Source: Escherichia phage HY126 | Direction: 5' to 3' (one strand) | Sequence record: PP658200.1 | DNA length: 64,000 nucleotides | In this document: piece by piece, positions 4,028 to 62,373 of the stretch | How positions within the stretch are numbered: the first letter of the stretch is position 1 | Layout of the letters: each line of letters opens with the position of its first letter | Notes under the pieces: model-generated | What the model saw: only the letters and a program-made list of their open reading frames with translations | What the model was told of the DNA's origin: nothing | Database searches by the model: none | Position numbers and translations under genes: made by a program

Positions 4028-4687
4028 TTAACCTCGATTCATAAATGCATTAAATATTTGGTCATCAACAGAAATTTCTAATTCAGCTTCAATTGTTTCA
4101 GCCTTTTCTTCAGGTGGTAATTCGTATCCACACACTACAATTTTTTCATCGATATCAAAATATACAGAAGCAATATGATTAATGTTATTTTCAGTTAAGT
4201 CTAAATCAACATCAACATCTTTTTGACCTACACTTAAAGGATAACTAATACGGGTTATTTTATTATCTTTAACAAAGAGTCCACCGACATACTCTGTACT
4301 ACGTTTGAAGTTTACACGTTTCCGAAATGAAAGATATGATGCATCTTTACCGTGAGCTCGGCTCATAGGACATAATGAATAGCTAGAATAAGAGATGTCA
4401 AATCCTACACCTTCAATATGAGCCAACGCGTCGTGATTAAACCAATTATAATCATATGCCAAATCCATTATATTGTAATATGTGAAAGGCACCGGATTAA
4501 CATCATACGTTGTACCTTTAAAATCTGCCCAGGCAACGATTTCGTTATCTTTAACAATTACAAAAATTACACCAATATGGTATCCGTTATTATTTTCATT
4601 CGGCGTTATATTATAACATTGTGCATTAGGAAATTTACCATATTTAAATGGCGCATTTTTGTGCATATAATAAATCATATTATTCAC
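4028..4687 (-). CDS. hypothetical protein (219 aa)
   Basis: Minus ORF, overlaps sp stop by a few nt (coupled); no motif recognised. Confidence 0.6.
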   Translation of the reverse strand: MNNMIYYMHKNAPFKYGKFPNAQCYNITPNENNNGYHIGVIFVIVKDNEIVAWADFKGTTYDVNPVPFTYYNIMDLAYDYNWFNHDALAHIEGVGFDISYSSYSLCPMSRAHGKDASYLSFRKRVNFKRSTEYVGGLFVKDNKITRISYPLSVGQKDVDVDLDLTENNINHIASVYFDIDEKIVVCGYELPPEEKAETIEAELEISVDDQIFNAFMNRG

Positions 4688-5743: not shown

Positions 5744-5773
5744 ATAGTAACACAGTATGTGGTGCTTGTAAAC
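5744..5773 (-). promoter_or_regulatory. T4-early-like promoter upstream of lipoprotein gene
   Basis: Minus strand GTTTAC - 17 nt - TACTAT-like -10; SD AGGAAATTGAA follows. Confidence 0.45.
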
Positions 5774-5775
5774 AG

Positions 5776-5988
5776 CTATTTTAAACTTTTGCGAAATTTG
5801 CGTTTTTCTTGACGAATCTGTCGTTTAGTCGGACGTACAGCAAATTTAACGAAGTCCACTTTGCCGTGTGGAAACTTTTCAGATGCTTCACAGTCCATCA
5901 TTAGTTCCCATCCTTCCAGAATAAGAGCTTTCCATTGTGTAGTTGATGCAAATTCGTATGTTGATGGTTTAAACACAGTTGAATACAT
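5776..5988 (-). CDS. small basic protein, VRPTKRQ-motif family (paralog c)
   Basis: Start refined to MYSTVF (GAGGAT SD); C-terminus FAVRPTKRQIRQEKRKFRK shared with two ORFs near 33790-34564. Confidence 0.5.
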   Translation of the reverse strand: MYSTVFKPSTYEFASTTQWKALILEGWELMMDCEASEKFPHGKVDFVKFAVRPTKRQIRQEKRKFRKSLK

Positions 5989-5989
5989 A

Positions 5990-6181
5990 TTATCCTCTGA
6001 AATCAGCTTCAAAAACTTTCTCGTCATTAACAAATGCTTTAACTAATGCTTTGTTCACTTCAGCAAGTTGTACCGCAACCCACTCGATTTCTTCACGGTC
6101 ACCTGATAACATGATATCTTTAGTGAACGTATTATCATTTTTAAACCAGCCAATAAAAGTAACTTTAGTTAATTTGCTCAT
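5990..6181 (-). CDS. hypothetical protein (about 63 aa)
   Basis: Start refined to MSKLTKV, ATGA-coupled to upstream gene; dmd-like position but not verified. Confidence 0.45.
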   Translation of the reverse strand: MSKLTKVTFIGWFKNDNTFTKDIMLSGDREEIEWVAVQLAEVNKALVKAFVNDEKVFEADFRG

Positions 6182-6495
6182 ATTTCCTCGCAAAATGCCC
6201 ATTCAGCGTGATAAACTGTAGCACCTTTAGTATTATTCATTTGAACTACGTCTACCGGAGAAATTACTCGATAGAGGCGTGGTTCACCTCCATAAGAGCG
6301 TGCAGCTCGTCCTGCATAAATCTTTGCTAAACCGATATCTTCAGTAAAGAATACACGATCCAAGTTTTTCTTACGTCCAGTTTCAGACAGAACTCCTGTT
6401 TCCTCAGGAGGACAAAGCATGTTTTCGATGTTAGCTGAACTACTTGAACCGTGATAAAAAATCTTAAATTCTGCTTTACAATCGATGGTTTTCAT
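6178..6495 (-). CDS. hypothetical protein (105 aa)
   Basis: Minus ORF with GGAGAA SD and own promoter; no reliable motif. Confidence 0.55.
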   Translation of the reverse strand: MKTIDCKAEFKIFYHGSSSSANIENMLCPPEETGVLSETGRKKNLDRVFFTEDIGLAKIYAGRAARSYGGEPRLYRVISPVDVVQMNNTKGATVYHAEWAFCEEI

Positions 6496-6925: not shown

Positions 6926-6991
6926 AATGTTTTCCTCTTGGTTTGTGTAAGTACATCATATCATGCCTAGAGGAAGATGTAAACCCCGAAA

Positions 6992-33751: not shown

Positions 33752-33779
33752 AATAAACCCTTACCATATTAGATAAGGG

Positions 33780-33787
33780 TATTTATA
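33780..33787 (-). promoter_or_regulatory. T4 late promoter TATAAATA (gene 49)
   Basis: Exact TATAAATA on minus strand about 30 nt upstream of gene 49 ATG. Confidence 0.6.
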
Positions 33788-33789
33788 AT

Positions 33790-33969
33790 TTAATAAATGT
33801 TATAAAAGTCACGATGGAAACGTTTGTATTGGCGAATCATTCTTTTAGTAGGACGTGTTACCGAAATGATTGAAGTCCTCATGTTCGGATTGTTTGGAGC
33901 ACCAATTATAACAAATTTCCAAGATTTTTGACCGTTTGTTCTTTCGCCAAAAAATAATGCAGTTTTCAT
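33790..33969 (-). CDS. small basic protein, VRPTKR-motif family (paralog a; 59 aa)
   Basis: Translated by eye: …SWKFVIIGAPNNPNMRTSIISVTRPTKRMIRQYKRFHRDFYNIY; shares the C-terminal motif with ORFs at 34394-34564 and 5776-5988. Confidence 0.4.
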   Translation of the reverse strand: MKTALFFGERTNGQKSWKFVIIGAPNNPNMRTSIISVTRPTKRMIRQYKRFHRDFYNIY

Positions 33970-33978
33970 AATAAGCCC

Positions 33979-34392
33979 TTAACTTAAACGTCTTTCTAAA
34001 TATTCAATGTATTCCGCTGCGGCTTGCATCAGATTACCTTCATAACCGTCATTATTTTCTTGGGCGGCTAATTTAGCTAAAGCATAAGAAATACGTTCAC
34101 CTTCGAATTCGCCAAGTTCACCATCACAAACTACTTGGTCAATTTCTTCGAGTTCATCTATTGAATGGGATTCCCAGAAGCACCAAAGAGAAGTATCACG
34201 GTCATAGATGCAAAGTTTCTCACCTGTGTTCAACATCACTTCGATAATGCCATGGTCGCCATAACCATCTTCGGTAGTAGTACCAATTACCTTGATGATC
34301 GTATCTTTCTTTAATTCAGGAAACTTATCTTGGAGTTCTTCGTCTTCTTTAACAATCTTGAACCATTTACCGCGAGTTTCAGAAATATTCAT
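33979..34392 (-). CDS. hypothetical acidic protein (pin region)
   Basis: Start refined to MNISETRGKW; lies where T4 carries pin but identity not verified. Confidence 0.5.
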   Translation of the reverse strand: MNISETRGKWFKIVKEDEELQDKFPELKKDTIIKVIGTTTEDGYGDHGIIEVMLNTGEKLCIYDRDTSLWCFWESHSIDELEEIDQVVCDGELGEFEGERISYALAKLAAQENNDGYEGNLMQAAAEYIEYLERRLS

Positions 34393-34393
34393 A

Positions 34394-34564
34394 TCAATAT
34401 TCTCTATAAAAGTTACGATGGGAACGTTTAGCTTTGCGAAGCTGACGTTTAGTAGGACGAACTGTAAATGGTTGTCCAGAGAAAAAATTCGGATCGGTTT
34501 TAATAAGCAAATACCAATCATGCTTGCCATTTTTTAATAAACGGTACAATAATTTAACTTGCAT
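34394..34564 (-). CDS. small basic protein, VRPTKRQ-motif family (paralog b)
   Basis: Start refined to MQVKLLYRL; C-terminus FTVRPTKRQLRKAKRSHRNFYREY. Confidence 0.45.
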   Translation of the reverse strand: MQVKLLYRLLKNGKHDWYLLIKTDPNFFSGQPFTVRPTKRQLRKAKRSHRNFYREY

Positions 34565-34692
34565 AATAATCTCTTCCCATTTCCATATCAATTAATTCAT
34601 TTATTGAAGGTTCATCATAACACGTTTCTTCGTCATTGTAAACTGTTTCGACGTCTGGCTCGACTGTCTCCCATCGAGCCGAATACCACGGT

Positions 34693-50739: not shown

Positions 50740-50802
50740 TTTTGTTTCCTTGGTTGTTTTGATAGAGTAATTATACCATATTAATACTTAAGCGTAAACA
50801 AT

Positions 50803-51510: not shown

Positions 51511-51540
51511 ATAGTATCAAAACCCTTGGAGGAAGTAAAC
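51511..51540 (-). promoter_or_regulatory. early promoter with SD-sequestering inverted repeat (denV)
   Basis: GTTTAC-TTCCTCCAAG-…TACTAT…-CTTGGAGGAA-ATTATG; 10-nt halves complementary, downstream half contains SD GGAGGAA. Confidence 0.55.
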
Positions 51541-54803: not shown

Positions 54804-54833
54804 TATAGTATCAACAACTACAGACCTTGTAAA
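54804..54833 (-). promoter_or_regulatory. T4-early-like promoter
   Basis: GTTTAC - 18 nt - TACTAT; -10 flanked by AGGTCTGTAG / CTATAGACCT. Confidence 0.5.
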
Positions 54834-54846
54834 CAGTTTTGCGAAA

Positions 54847-61401: not shown

Positions 61402-61480
61402 ATTTTCCTCACTTAAAGTTGGTGCCTCTAGAAAGATTTGAACTCTCACCATTAACCTTAGAACGATTATATGCTATCCA

Positions 61481-62146
61481 TTACACTATAGAGGCAATTA
61501 AATTATTTACAATATCTTCTTTATAAACTTCAGCATAATGAAGTTCATATATTTCCCATCCTAATGATTTTATAATATCATGGCGTTCTTTATAATAAGG
61601 GGCCAAAATCTTTTTCTTAGGATTGGAGTAATGTTGGTTTCCATTAACTTCAATAATAATCTTTTTATCTATTAAAGCAATATCCGTGCAATACGCTCGG
61701 TTTTTAACCGGTTGGTATTCTTCAATAAATGAAATTCCGTTTTCTATTAATTTAGATTTCAAAAATTCACAAGGCACAGATTTAAATTTTGTATTTTTCT
61801 TCCAAGGATGTTTATCAGGGTTTTCATTCAACCATTTTTTCCGAGCATTAGATATTTTTATTCTAGATTCCTCAGAGTGTTCTCTACCTAATGAAGCGGC
61901 TGACAATTTTTGTCTAGTCTCTTCCGAAATTACTACAGGGACACCAGTCTTTTTAGATACAACATACTGGTTTAAATTACCTGAAGCTATACGTGCTTTA
62001 TTCATTGCTGCAATGGCTGATTTAGAACTTTCTTTATACAATTCCAATTTAGGGTTGGATTTACACCATCTAGTGTGGTTAGCCATCCATCCTTTAGGTT
62101 TATTAGAAATATCAAATTCCATATTACAATGTTTACAAATGCTCAT
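61481..62146 (-). CDS. homing-endonuclease-like protein (NUMOD3 motifs + Vsr/DUF559-like nuclease domain)
   Basis: Two NUMOD3-like repeats (SEETRQKLSAA, SEESRIKISNA), N-terminal Cys/His cluster, C-terminal …IIIEVNGNQH…KERHDIIKSLGWEIYEL… like DUF559/Vsr endonucleases; start refined to MSICKH. Confidence 0.65.
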   Translation of the reverse strand: MSICKHCNMEFDISNKPKGWMANHTRWCKSNPKLELYKESSKSAIAAMNKARIASGNLNQYVVSKKTGVPVVISEETRQKLSAASLGREHSEESRIKISNARKKWLNENPDKHPWKKNTKFKSVPCEFLKSKLIENGISFIEEYQPVKNRAYCTDIALIDKKIIIEVNGNQHYSNPKKKILAPYYKERHDIIKSLGWEIYELHYAEVYKEDIVNNLIASIV

Positions 62147-62220: not shown

Positions 62221-62292
62221 CTGGCGCACTTGGACTCGAACCAAGATAAAGGAGTTAACAGCTCCCCGTAATAACCTTTATACGATGCACCA
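62221..62292 (-). tRNA. tRNA, anticodon GUU (Asn); CCA not encoded
   Basis: Folded by eye: 7-bp acceptor (one G-U), U8, A14, GG in D-loop, anticodon loop CUGUUAA, T-arm CUUGG-UUCGAGU-CCAAG. Confidence 0.55.
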
Positions 62293-62298
62293 TTTGTT

Positions 62299-62373
62299 TG
62301 GTGACCCTGGCTGGTTTCGATCCAGCTACCTATCAGTTATGAGCTGACAGCTCTCCCATTGAGCTACAGGGCC
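62299..62373 (-). tRNA. tRNA, anticodon CAU (Met or Ile2), encoded CCA
   Basis: Folded by eye: GGCCCUG acceptor, D-arm GCUC/GAGC, anticodon loop CUCAUAA, T-arm GCUGG…CCAGC, 3' ACCA. Confidence 0.75.

What the first reader, a model, noticed from the sequence alone, without database searches (positions are those of the whole stretch)
33790..34564. Dispersed family of small basic proteins with a conserved (V/T)RPTKRQ(I/L)R…KR…R.FY C-terminus
Three small ORFs, two of them below the 60-aa track cutoff, share an almost identical C-terminal motif at nucleotide and protein level: 33790-33969 (…ISVTRPTKRMIRQYKRFHRDFYNIY), 34394-34564 (…FTVRPTKRQLRKAKRSHRNFYREY) and 5776-5988 (…FAVRPTKRQIRQEKRKFRKSLK). 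Two flank the putative pin-region gene about 600 bp apart; the third is 28 kb away next to gene 41. A conserved basic tail on small proteins suggests nucleic-acid binding or a shared targeting signal.
Basis: seen in the sequence. Interest (0 to 1): 0.55.

Follow-up and report, generated by a model that had tools for sequence, protein, structure and literature searches.

The report
Three TifA-family anti-toxin paralogs
The three small basic ORFs are real genes of the known phage TifA family (Pfam DUF7279): one is identical to the RB69 protein shown to bind RNA and block the bacterial ToxN toxin, and the two beside the Lon-inhibitor gene pin are shorter, untested paralogs.

Summary
The window is a Mosigvirus (RB69/JS09-like T4-type phage). 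The three ORFs exist exactly as described and are homologous over their whole length, not only in the tail. All three match Pfam DUF7279 (E 1e-14 to 3e-20).

ORF 5776-5988 is gene 61.4, tifA. It is 100% identical to RB69 TifA, which published experiments show to be an RNA-binding inhibitor of the ToxN endoribonuclease.

ORFs 33790-33969 (RB69ORF087c) and 34394-34564 (RB69ORF089c) flank pin. They are under purifying selection (dN/dS 0.04-0.16). AlphaFold2 gives both the TifA fold (three strands plus helix, pLDDT 88). Both lack most of the ~20-residue loop that TifA uses to contact ToxN. They lie between an early-promoter-like site and a terminator hairpin, together with pin.

The nucleotide-level similarity was overstated (67-73% in the motif).

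Verdict: a known family. "Nucleic-acid binding" is correct and "non-coding repeat" is refuted. What the two short paralogs target is unknown. I infer that they are RNA-binding counter-defence proteins with targets other than ToxN.

The parts
5776..5988 (-). tifA (gene 61.4), 70 aa. TifA of the RB69 type, an RNA-binding inhibitor of the ToxN endoribonuclease. Carries H41, P53, T54, K55, R56 and R59.
   Evidence: Pfam PF23945 at 72.1 bits. Annotated as gp61.4 in RB69. The exact sequence equals AAP75940.1. Function is from PMC9391042 and PMC10853763.
5990..6181 (-). dmd (61.5), an inhibitor of the RnlA/LsoA toxins. It sits immediately upstream of tifA and is co-transcribed with it.
   Evidence: Pfam Dmd PF17587 at E 2e-21. 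RB69 annotation. The dmd-tifA operon is described in PMC9391042.
6955..6984 (-). T4-early-promoter-like site (GTTTACA-N-TGATATGAT) upstream of ORF041c, ORF040c, dmd and tifA.
   Evidence: Consensus match only. The pattern occurs 7 times in the window, all on the - strand, against 0.09 expected by chance.
34614..34643 (-). T4-early-promoter-like site (GTTTACA-N17-TGTTATGAT) about 50 nt upstream of the ORF089c start, inside gene 49.1.
   Evidence: Present in the five other Mosigvirus loci covering this region that were scanned (L002, L015, L016, L017, L019) and in the closely related IMG/VR contig L008. This is a consensus match; function has not been shown.
34394..34564 (-). RB69ORF089c-type short TifA paralog, 56 aa, pI 10.8. 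Its stop codon lies 1 nt before the pin ATG.
   Evidence: Pfam PF23945 at 54.5 bits. AlphaFold2 pLDDT 87.7 with E2-9, E15-24, E27-33 and H39-55. dN/dS 0.08-0.16 wherever a replacement is seen. At least 80% identical in 145 phage records.
33979..34392 (-). pin (PinA), an inhibitor of the host Lon protease, 137 aa. It lies between the two short paralogs.
   Evidence: Pfam Inhibitor_I24 PF10465 at E 2e-47. Annotation.
33790..33969 (-). RB69ORF087c-type short TifA paralog, 59 aa, pI 11.4, between pin and gene 49.
   Evidence: Pfam PF23945 at 53.8 bits. AlphaFold2 pLDDT 87.9 with E2-9, E15-22, E31-36 and H42-58. dN/dS 0.04-0.07. Orthologs at the same position in Tequatrovirus G50 and Dhakavirus JS98.
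33757..33780 (-). Terminator-like hairpin (9-bp stem followed by a T-run) between ORF087c and gene 49. It closes the ORF089c-pin-ORF087c unit.
   Evidence: -13.8 kcal/mol, z -2.45. Near-invariant in T4, G50, RPN187 and the window. Annotated as a terminator in G50 and ATK48.

Best explanation
The three ORFs are old paralogs of one small phage protein family, TifA (Pfam DUF7279). The helix is an RNA-binding surface.

Shown: ORF 5776-5988 is tifA itself and is identical to RB69 TifA. Published work establishes that this early protein binds RNA through the helix, also binds the ToxN endoribonuclease of the type III toxIN system, and traps ToxN on abundant RNA (16S rRNA) so that it cannot destroy phage transcripts.

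Inferred: the two short copies, ORF089c and ORF087c, are made early. They lie with the Lon inhibitor Pin between an early-type promoter and a hairpin terminator. They bind RNA in the same way, because they keep the cap and every basic residue that was mutated in TifA. Their beta2-beta3 connection is only 2-8 residues, against about 20 in TifA, and that TifA loop carries the ToxN-specificity residue 41. They therefore most likely do not act on ToxN through the TifA interface. I think they tether or mask a different host RNA-directed defence protein, or another RNA target. Their patchy presence among relatives fits accessory counter-defence genes.
For: Family membership: Pfam PF23945 for all three; PHROG cross-hits; BLASTP between the paralogs; invariant W, RPTK, R, K and R across 18 family members.

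Identity with the tested protein: the exact sequence equals AAP75940.1, and residue numbering P53/T54/K55/R56/R59/H41 matches.

Real genes: dN/dS 0.04-0.16; annotated CDSs in relatives.

Fold: AlphaFold2 pLDDT 87.7 and 87.9, three strands plus a helix that begins directly after Pro-Thr. This matches the published TifA model.

Conservation pattern: the helix is better conserved (14-16 of 19) than the sheet and loop (17-18 of 38) between genera, the same pattern reported for TifA.

Expression unit: early-promoter-like site at 34643-34614, conserved in relatives, and a terminator hairpin.

Counter-defence neighbourhoods: dmd and adfA sit next to tifA, and pin sits between the short copies. In T6 the pin-nrdC region also holds the OLD inhibitor gp49.2 (PMC13096335).

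Patchy distribution: ORF087c is at least 80% identical in only 54 records against 145 for ORF089c; it is cleanly absent in Mosigvirus RPN187 and deleted in T4.

Published specificity: six divergent TifA homologs failed to neutralise any ToxN or TenpN tested.
Against: No experiment exists for the two short paralogs. RNA binding, early expression and any anti-defence role are inferred for them. The promoter is a consensus match only. Fold searches gave no functionally annotated neighbour: BFVD returned only uncharacterised T4-like phage proteins, and the best PDB match had E 0.29. No solved relative was found. The published ToxN-TifA interface is itself a medium-confidence AlphaFold model, so absence of the loop does not rigorously exclude ToxN as a target. 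ORF087c is dispensable in many relatives, and ORF089c is frameshifted in the RB69 reference sequence, so neither is essential.
Confidence: 0.75

Rival explanations
1. The two short paralogs are general RNA-binding proteins that coat or chaperone RNA, or associate with the ribosome. They would stabilise phage mRNA or modulate translation through 16S rRNA and would have no specific host defence protein as a partner.
For: They keep only the RNA-binding helix and a minimal sheet, and lack the partner-binding loop of TifA. TifA alone co-purifies with heterogeneous RNA, and 16S rRNA is enriched in ToxN-TifA complexes. They are very basic, with pI 10.8-11.4.
Against: The published data argue that TifA does not work by simply coating RNA; it shows specificity for particular partners. 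The sheet region of the 087c type diverges faster than the helix between genera, which suggests a co-evolving partner surface. Patchy presence fits host-specific accessory functions better than a general RNA role.
Confidence: 0.2
2. The short paralogs work together with Pin, for example by bringing RNA or a substrate to the Pin-Lon complex. This would explain why they flank pin, and why T4 Pin carries a fused piece of one of them.
For: The ORF089c stop and the pin start are 1 nt apart, and ORF087c follows pin by 9 nt. Orthologs of ORF087c sit next to pin in three genera. T4 and T2 Pin end with 17 residues derived from the 087c-type helix.
Against: The T4 fusion keeps only the distal part of the helix. 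It has lost the PT cap and K/R equivalents, and two Arg have become Gln, which looks like a deletion remnant. RPN187 has pin without ORF087c, and T4 has pin without either intact paralog. Pin therefore does not need them.
Confidence: 0.08
3. The shared segment is a non-coding DNA or RNA repeat, such as a promoter/stem-loop cassette of the PeSL type or a recombination hotspot, that happens to lie in small spurious ORFs.
For: T4-type genomes do contain dispersed regulatory cassettes, and early-promoter-like sites are common here.
Against: Nucleotide identity in the motif is only 67-73%, the longest exact run is 12 nt, and synonymous codon differences are present. dN/dS is 0.04-0.16. There are significant full-length protein family hits and confident folds. 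No Rfam family lies in these regions. For tifA, a recoded gene still works and a start-codon deletion does not (PMC9391042).
Confidence: 0.02
4. The conserved basic C-terminus is a shared localisation or packaging signal, for example one that targets the proteins to the virion.
For: Small basic proteins are sometimes packaged.
Against: The tail is the single helix of a compact fold and packs on the sheet. Its mutation in TifA abolishes RNA binding. From general knowledge of T4, the known capsid-targeting signals are N-terminal. tifA is an early gene.
Confidence: 0.03

Closest known systems
TifA (T4 gp61.4; RB69 gp61.4), ToxN inhibitory factor A (Srikant 2022, PMC9391042; Guegler 2023, PMC10853763)
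   Same: ORF 5776-5988 is this protein, 100% identical to the RB69 version. It has the same position downstream of dmd and the same H41 and P53-T54-K55-R56-R59. The two short ORFs share the Pfam family, the three-strand plus helix fold, the PT cap and the basic helix.
   Different: The short ORFs are 56-59 aa instead of 70-85. They lack the N-terminal insertion and most of the ~20-residue beta2-beta3 loop that carries the ToxN-specificity residue. They end in a KR.HR.FY signature instead of FRK. They lie next to pin, not dmd. Neither has been tested.
Pfam DUF7279 (PF23945); PHROGs phrog_2375 (TifA type) and phrog_3272 (short type)
   Same: All three ORFs score above the Pfam gathering threshold over essentially the whole model. 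NCBI already names some cluster members 'DUF7279 family protein'.
   Different: Pfam lists the family as of unknown function. PHROGs splits the short pin-flanking type (phrog_3272) from the TifA type (phrog_2375), with only weak cross-hits.
[quoted passage not shown] 5C of Guegler 2023
   Same: It represents the 90% cluster that contains the window's ORF089c (P0015). The ORF089c type is therefore already recognised in print as a TifA homolog.
   Different: It appears only in an alignment. It was not in the neutralisation panel, and its position next to pin and its co-occurrence with two other copies in one genome were not discussed in the text I read.
Dmd (T4 61.5), a small phage protein antitoxin against RnlA/LsoA
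   Same: It is a small early phage protein that neutralises a host RNase toxin, and it is encoded in the same operon as tifA.
   Different: It belongs to an unrelated family (PF17587). It is described as a direct inhibitor of RnlA, whereas TifA inhibition of ToxN involves both the protein and RNA.

Membership tests
TifA / Pfam DUF7279 | Significant match to the family profile over the whole domain | tested here: met
   PF23945 gives 53.8 bits (087c), 54.5 bits (089c) and 72.1 bits (tifA) against a cut-off of 24.5, covering profile positions 1-4 to 52-53 of 53.
TifA / Pfam DUF7279 | [quoted passage not shown] | tested here: met
   AlphaFold2 models: 089c has E2-9, E15-24, E27-33 and H39-55 (pLDDT 87.7). 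087c has E2-9, E15-22, E31-36 and H42-58 (pLDDT 87.9). The tifA copy was not modelled here, but it is identical to the published RB69 protein.
TifA / Pfam DUF7279 | Pro-Thr helix cap followed by the basic cluster (P53, T54, K55, R56, R59 in TifA-RB69) | tested here: met
   RPTK, R, K and R are invariant in the 18-sequence alignment. All three window proteins carry R-P-T-K-R-x-x-R. In the models the helix starts right after P-T.
TifA / Pfam DUF7279 | A ~20-residue beta2-beta3 loop carrying residue 41, the predicted ToxN contact and specificity determinant | tested here: not met
   Present in ORF 5776-5988 (FPH41GKV). In 089c the connection is a 2-residue turn (strands 15-24 and 27-33). In 087c it is 8 residues (23-30). 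Alignment gaps agree. 'Not met' applies to the two short paralogs only.
TifA / Pfam DUF7279 | Location directly downstream of dmd in an early transcription unit | tested here: met
   Met for ORF 5776-5988. Not met for the two short ORFs, which flank pin.
TifA / Pfam DUF7279 | Binds RNA in vitro and in vivo through the basic helix | not testable with these tools
   Shown experimentally for the identical RB69 protein (PMC10853763). Inferred for the short paralogs from residue conservation.
TifA / Pfam DUF7279 | Neutralises ToxN toxicity and restores plating on toxIN+ cells | not testable with these tools
   Shown for RB69 TifA. Six divergent homologs failed. The short pin-flanking types were not in the panel.
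Non-coding dispersed repeat (promoter/stem-loop cassette) | Conservation at the DNA level independent of reading frame, in an intergenic position | tested here: not met
   67-73% nucleotide identity, longest exact run 12 nt, synonymous differences present. dN/dS 0.04-0.16. No Rfam hit.

The most novel reading that the evidence does not exclude
The TifA fold is a modular 'RNA-tether' scaffold: a constant RNA-binding helix joined to a variable sheet and loop that selects the victim. On this reading the two short paralogs co-expressed with the Lon inhibitor Pin are new counter-defence proteins. Each would neutralise a different host RNA-directed immune effector (another RNase toxin or an abortive-infection nuclease), making the pin locus a second anti-toxin island in T4-type phages.
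Probability: 0.3. Interest if true: 0.55.

Novelty: already known. Interest (0 to 1): 0.3.

Why it matters
What remains open is modest but testable. This phage carries three TifA-family genes. The two short ones have lost the ToxN-contacting loop and sit in a single apparent early unit with the Lon inhibitor Pin. They are gained and lost among close relatives, and in T4 and T2 a deletion fused a remnant of one onto Pin. If they inhibit other RNase-type defences, they would extend the TifA mechanism (trapping a toxin on bulk RNA) beyond ToxN and would help predict the host range of therapeutic T4-like phages.

Tried and rejected
1. Non-coding repeat or regulatory cassette. Rejected on codon-level evidence and the lack of any Rfam hit.

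2. More copies elsewhere. An HMM scan of the window and of the rest of the JS09 genome (L005-L007) found none beyond the three.

3. Large-scale family expansion. A profile HMMER search of 1.84 billion representatives gave only 10 hits at E <= 1e-3. Two were clearly spurious repeat proteins, and one 1294-aa hit was not inspected. A single-sequence word-index search gave 5 hits and a profile search gave 20. The proteins are too short for deep searches to say much about distribution.

4. A viral-contig scan gave 7 loci. Only one was a close relative, and the six 35%-identity hits were not confirmed by the HMM.

5. Fold searches for functional analogues. BFVD returned only uncharacterised T4-like phage proteins. 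PDB Foldseek found nothing below E 0.29. A PDB sequence-profile search found nothing. NCBIfam found nothing.

6. Literature search for RB69ORF087c/089c or TifA paralogs. Nothing relevant turned up.

Full report
**Source and annotation.** The window is a T4-type phage of the genus Mosigvirus. It is 99-99.7% identical to phages JQD51 and JS09 over the pin region and 97-99% identical to JS09 and RB69 over the dmd region. In the annotated relatives the three ORFs are RB69ORF087c (window 33790-33969), RB69ORF089c (34394-34564) and gene 61.4 (5776-5988). All are on the - strand.

**Check of the observation.**
- The ORFs and their quoted C-termini are exactly as described.
- RPTKR occurs in only these three places in all six frames of the 64 kb.
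- A family HMM finds no fourth copy in the window or in the rest of the closely related JS09 genome.
- The paralogs are significantly similar as proteins. 087c and 089c align over their full length at E 4e-11. Each aligns to 61.4 over the motif at E 8e-7 and 5e-5.
- The claim of near-identity at the nucleotide level does not hold. The 48-nt core is 67-73% identical, the longest exact run shared by any two copies is 12 nt, and third codon positions differ. These are old paralogs, not a recent DNA repeat.

**What the family is.**
- All three proteins match Pfam DUF7279 (PF23945) above threshold across the whole 53-position model.
- PHROGs places 61.4 in phrog_2375 and the two short ones in phrog_3272, with weak cross-hits.
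- Gene 61.4 was renamed tifA by Srikant et al. 2022 (PMC9391042). T4 escapes the type III toxin-antitoxin system toxIN by amplifying dmd-tifA, and TifA is a protein inhibitor of the ToxN endoribonuclease. RB69 TifA is a stronger inhibitor than T4 TifA.
- Guegler et al. 2023 (PMC10853763) showed that TifA binds RNA and ToxN and forms a large ribonucleoprotein in which ToxN is inactive. The RNA-binding element is a C-terminal basic helix capped by Pro-Thr. TifA-RB69 P53A/T54A and K55A/R56A/R59A lose RNA binding and ToxN inhibition.
- The window's ORF 5776-5988 is the same exact sequence as RB69 gp61.4 (AAP75940.1), and its numbering gives R52-P53-T54-K55-R56-Q57-I58-R59 and H41.

**The two short ORFs are real genes.**
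- Between Mosigvirus relatives, 12 of 35 synonymous sites but only 8 of 133 non-synonymous sites differ in ORF089c (dN/dS about 0.14).
- For ORF087c the figures are 17-18 of 35 synonymous against 7-8 of 142 non-synonymous (dN/dS about 0.06).
- tblastn finds ORF089c at 80% identity or more in 145 phage records, and ORF087c in 54.
- A further roughly 300 records from Tequatrovirus, Dhakavirus and phages of Yersinia and Salmonella hosts hold hits of 35-60% identity. Where they were inspected (G50, JS98), these are 087c-type orthologs sitting between pin and gene 49.
- Two disruptions were seen. The RB69 reference has an extra A in an A-run, which frameshifts ORF089c. One IMG/VR contig has no ATG-initiated ORF087c, because a stop lies just upstream of its conserved part. 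Comparison with the window's 5' sequence suggests an extra T in the T-run, but I did not read the contig's DNA. Each may be a sequencing error or a strain-specific loss.

**Structure.**
- With an 18-sequence family alignment, AlphaFold2 models both short proteins confidently.
- ORF089c has pLDDT 87.7, strands 2-9, 15-24 and 27-33, and helix 39-55.
- ORF087c has pLDDT 87.9, strands 2-9, 15-22 and 31-36, and helix 42-58.
- In both, the helix begins immediately after Pro-Thr. This is the architecture published for TifA.
- There is one clear difference. TifA has a ~20-residue loop that protrudes between strands and carries residue 41. That residue tunes ToxN inhibition, and the loop lies in the predicted ToxN interface. 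ORF089c has a 2-residue turn there and ORF087c has 8 residues. The alignments show matching deletions, plus loss of an N-terminal insertion.
- Between genera, the helix of the 087c type is conserved at 14-16 of 19 positions and the sheet/loop part at 17-18 of 38. The same pattern was noted for TifA, and it suggests a constant RNA-binding module joined to a variable partner surface.
- All three proteins are strongly basic (pI 9.9-11.4), with 7-10 Lys/Arg in the last 19-21 residues.

**Genomic setting.**
- tifA follows dmd (Pfam Dmd) and lies about 1.1 kb from adfA (Pfam AdfA, anti-DarT). This is the "anti-TA island" of Srikant et al..
- The short paralogs bracket pin (Pfam PinA Lon inhibitor). 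Spacing is very tight: the ORF089c stop is 1 nt from the pin ATG, and ORF087c starts 9 nt after the pin stop.
- A T4-early-promoter-like pattern, GTTTAC-N15-19-TGnTAnnAT, occurs 7 times in the window, all on the - strand, against 0.09 expected.
- One copy lies at 34643-34614, about 50 nt upstream of ORF089c. It is present in the five other Mosigvirus loci covering this region (L002, L015, L016, L017, L019) and in the closely related IMG/VR contig L008.
- A hairpin followed by a T-run lies at 33780-33757, after ORF087c. It is near-invariant from T4 to this phage.
- I therefore read ORF089c-pin-ORF087c as one early unit. This is inferred from consensus matches, not shown.
- In T6, the adjacent pin-nrdC.2 region holds gp49.2, an inhibitor of the OLD defence nuclease (PMC13096335). 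The neighbourhood is therefore rich in counter-defence genes.

**How it most likely works.**
- For tifA the mechanism is published: early expression, RNA binding through the helix, ToxN binding through the sheet and loop, and trapping of ToxN on 16S rRNA or bulk RNA.
- For the short paralogs I infer early expression and RNA binding through the conserved helix.
- I also infer a partner other than ToxN, or no specific partner, because the specificity loop is missing.
- In support, six divergent TifA homologs neutralised none of the ToxN or TenpN toxins tested. The authors concluded that TifA proteins are specific.
- The short types were not in that panel.
- One of them is, however, already in print as a "TifA homolog". 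UniProt A0A0U4JDN8 of phage phiE142 is listed in the Fig. 5C alignment, and it is the representative of the 90% cluster that contains the window's ORF089c.

**Rival explanations.**
- A generic RNA-coating or chaperone role cannot be excluded (about 0.2).
- A functional link to Pin is suggested by adjacency and by the T4 fusion described below. It is weakened because pin occurs without either paralog (about 0.08).
- A non-coding repeat and a targeting signal are effectively excluded.

**Side observation on Pin.**
- T4 has no gene between pin and 49.
- Its Pin ends in ...SFSDRMIQQYKRLHQMFYNT. The last 17 residues match the C-terminus of the 087c-type protein of Tequatrovirus G50 at 13 of 17 positions.
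- The DNA alignment shows a roughly 130-140-bp deletion that joins pin in frame to the last 17 codons of the paralog.
- The junction sequence is present in 238 phage records, including T2 and phiD1. The remaining 112 records with a match cover less than 80% of it. Those listed (Aplg8, GiZh, W143 and others) match only the pin half, as expected for an unfused gene.
- The fused tail has lost the PT cap, and two Arg have become Gln, so it looks like a remnant rather than a working RNA-binding helix.

**Novelty and score.** The family is known: it has a Pfam entry, a named and characterised member, and a published alignment that includes the ORF089c type. Not described in the papers I could read are three points: three copies in one genome, two of them in one apparent early unit with pin; the loop-less architecture of those two; and the Pin-tail fusion in T4 and T2. 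These make testable leads of moderate interest. Interest 0.3; novelty: already known.

Noticed in passing
L003 5398-5883 (T4 NC_000866 46897-47382), compared with L004 1555-2177 (G50): T4 Pin is a chimera. A roughly 130-140-bp deletion fuses pin in frame to the last 17 codons of the 087c-type TifA paralog, giving the tail DRMIQQYKRLHQMFYNT. The junction is present in 238 phage records, including T2 and phiD1.
   Followed up: yes
L019 2876-3046 (RB69 AY303349 48375-48545): The RB69 reference sequence has A7 where this window and RPN187 have a shorter A-run (A6 and A5). This frameshifts ORF089c after about codon 10, and GenBank annotates only a 38-aa remnant. It may be a sequencing error or a real loss in the laboratory strain used for the TifA work.
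   Followed up: partly
L015 1373-1850 (Mosigvirus RPN187): ORF087c is cleanly absent here. The pin stop runs straight into the conserved hairpin before gene 49. ORF087c is thus a presence/absence cassette within the genus: 54 records carry it at 80% identity or more, against 145 for ORF089c.
   Followed up: partly
window, - strand: 1120-1149, 5744-5773, 6955-6984, 34614-34643, 50770-50799, 51511-51540, 54805-54834: The T4-early-promoter-like pattern GTTTAC-N15-19-TGnTAnnAT occurs 7 times, all on the - strand, against 0.09 expected from shuffles. One copy starts 3 nt after the tifA stop codon.
   Followed up: partly
window 6178-6495 (-), RB69ORF040c type, 105 aa: This ORF overlaps the dmd start by 4 nt, in the same early unit as dmd-tifA. 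It has no Pfam hit at E<=0.01. One RefSeq record (HX01) lists 'ADP-ribosyl transferase' among the features in this stretch. It is a candidate further counter-defence gene of the 'anti-TA island'.
   Followed up: no
window 4028-4666 (-): A full-length AdfA homolog (Pfam PF23813, E 2e-118; anti-DarT factor A, T4 gp61.2) lies about 1.1 kb downstream of tifA. It confirms that the published anti-toxin island is intact in this phage.
   Followed up: partly
L008 1501-1674 (IMGVR_UViG_3300030021_000012): The stop-to-stop frame that holds the ORF087c ortholog begins KLHYFFGER instead of MKTALFFGER, so no ATG-initiated ORF is present. Comparison with the window sequence suggests one extra T in the T-run near the 5' end. 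This could be a metagenome homopolymer error or a pseudogene. The contig's DNA was not read.
   Followed up: no
window 61423-61495, 62221-62292, 62302-62373 (-): Three tRNA genes were found by Rfam, probably part of the phage tRNA cluster. They are unrelated to the finding.
   Followed up: no
proteins P0008 (195 aa) and P0013 (267 aa): The family profile weakly hits two repetitive proteins that contain tandem 'VRPT..IR..KR'-like units (4 stretches each). They look like low-complexity or repeat artefacts rather than relatives.
   Followed up: no
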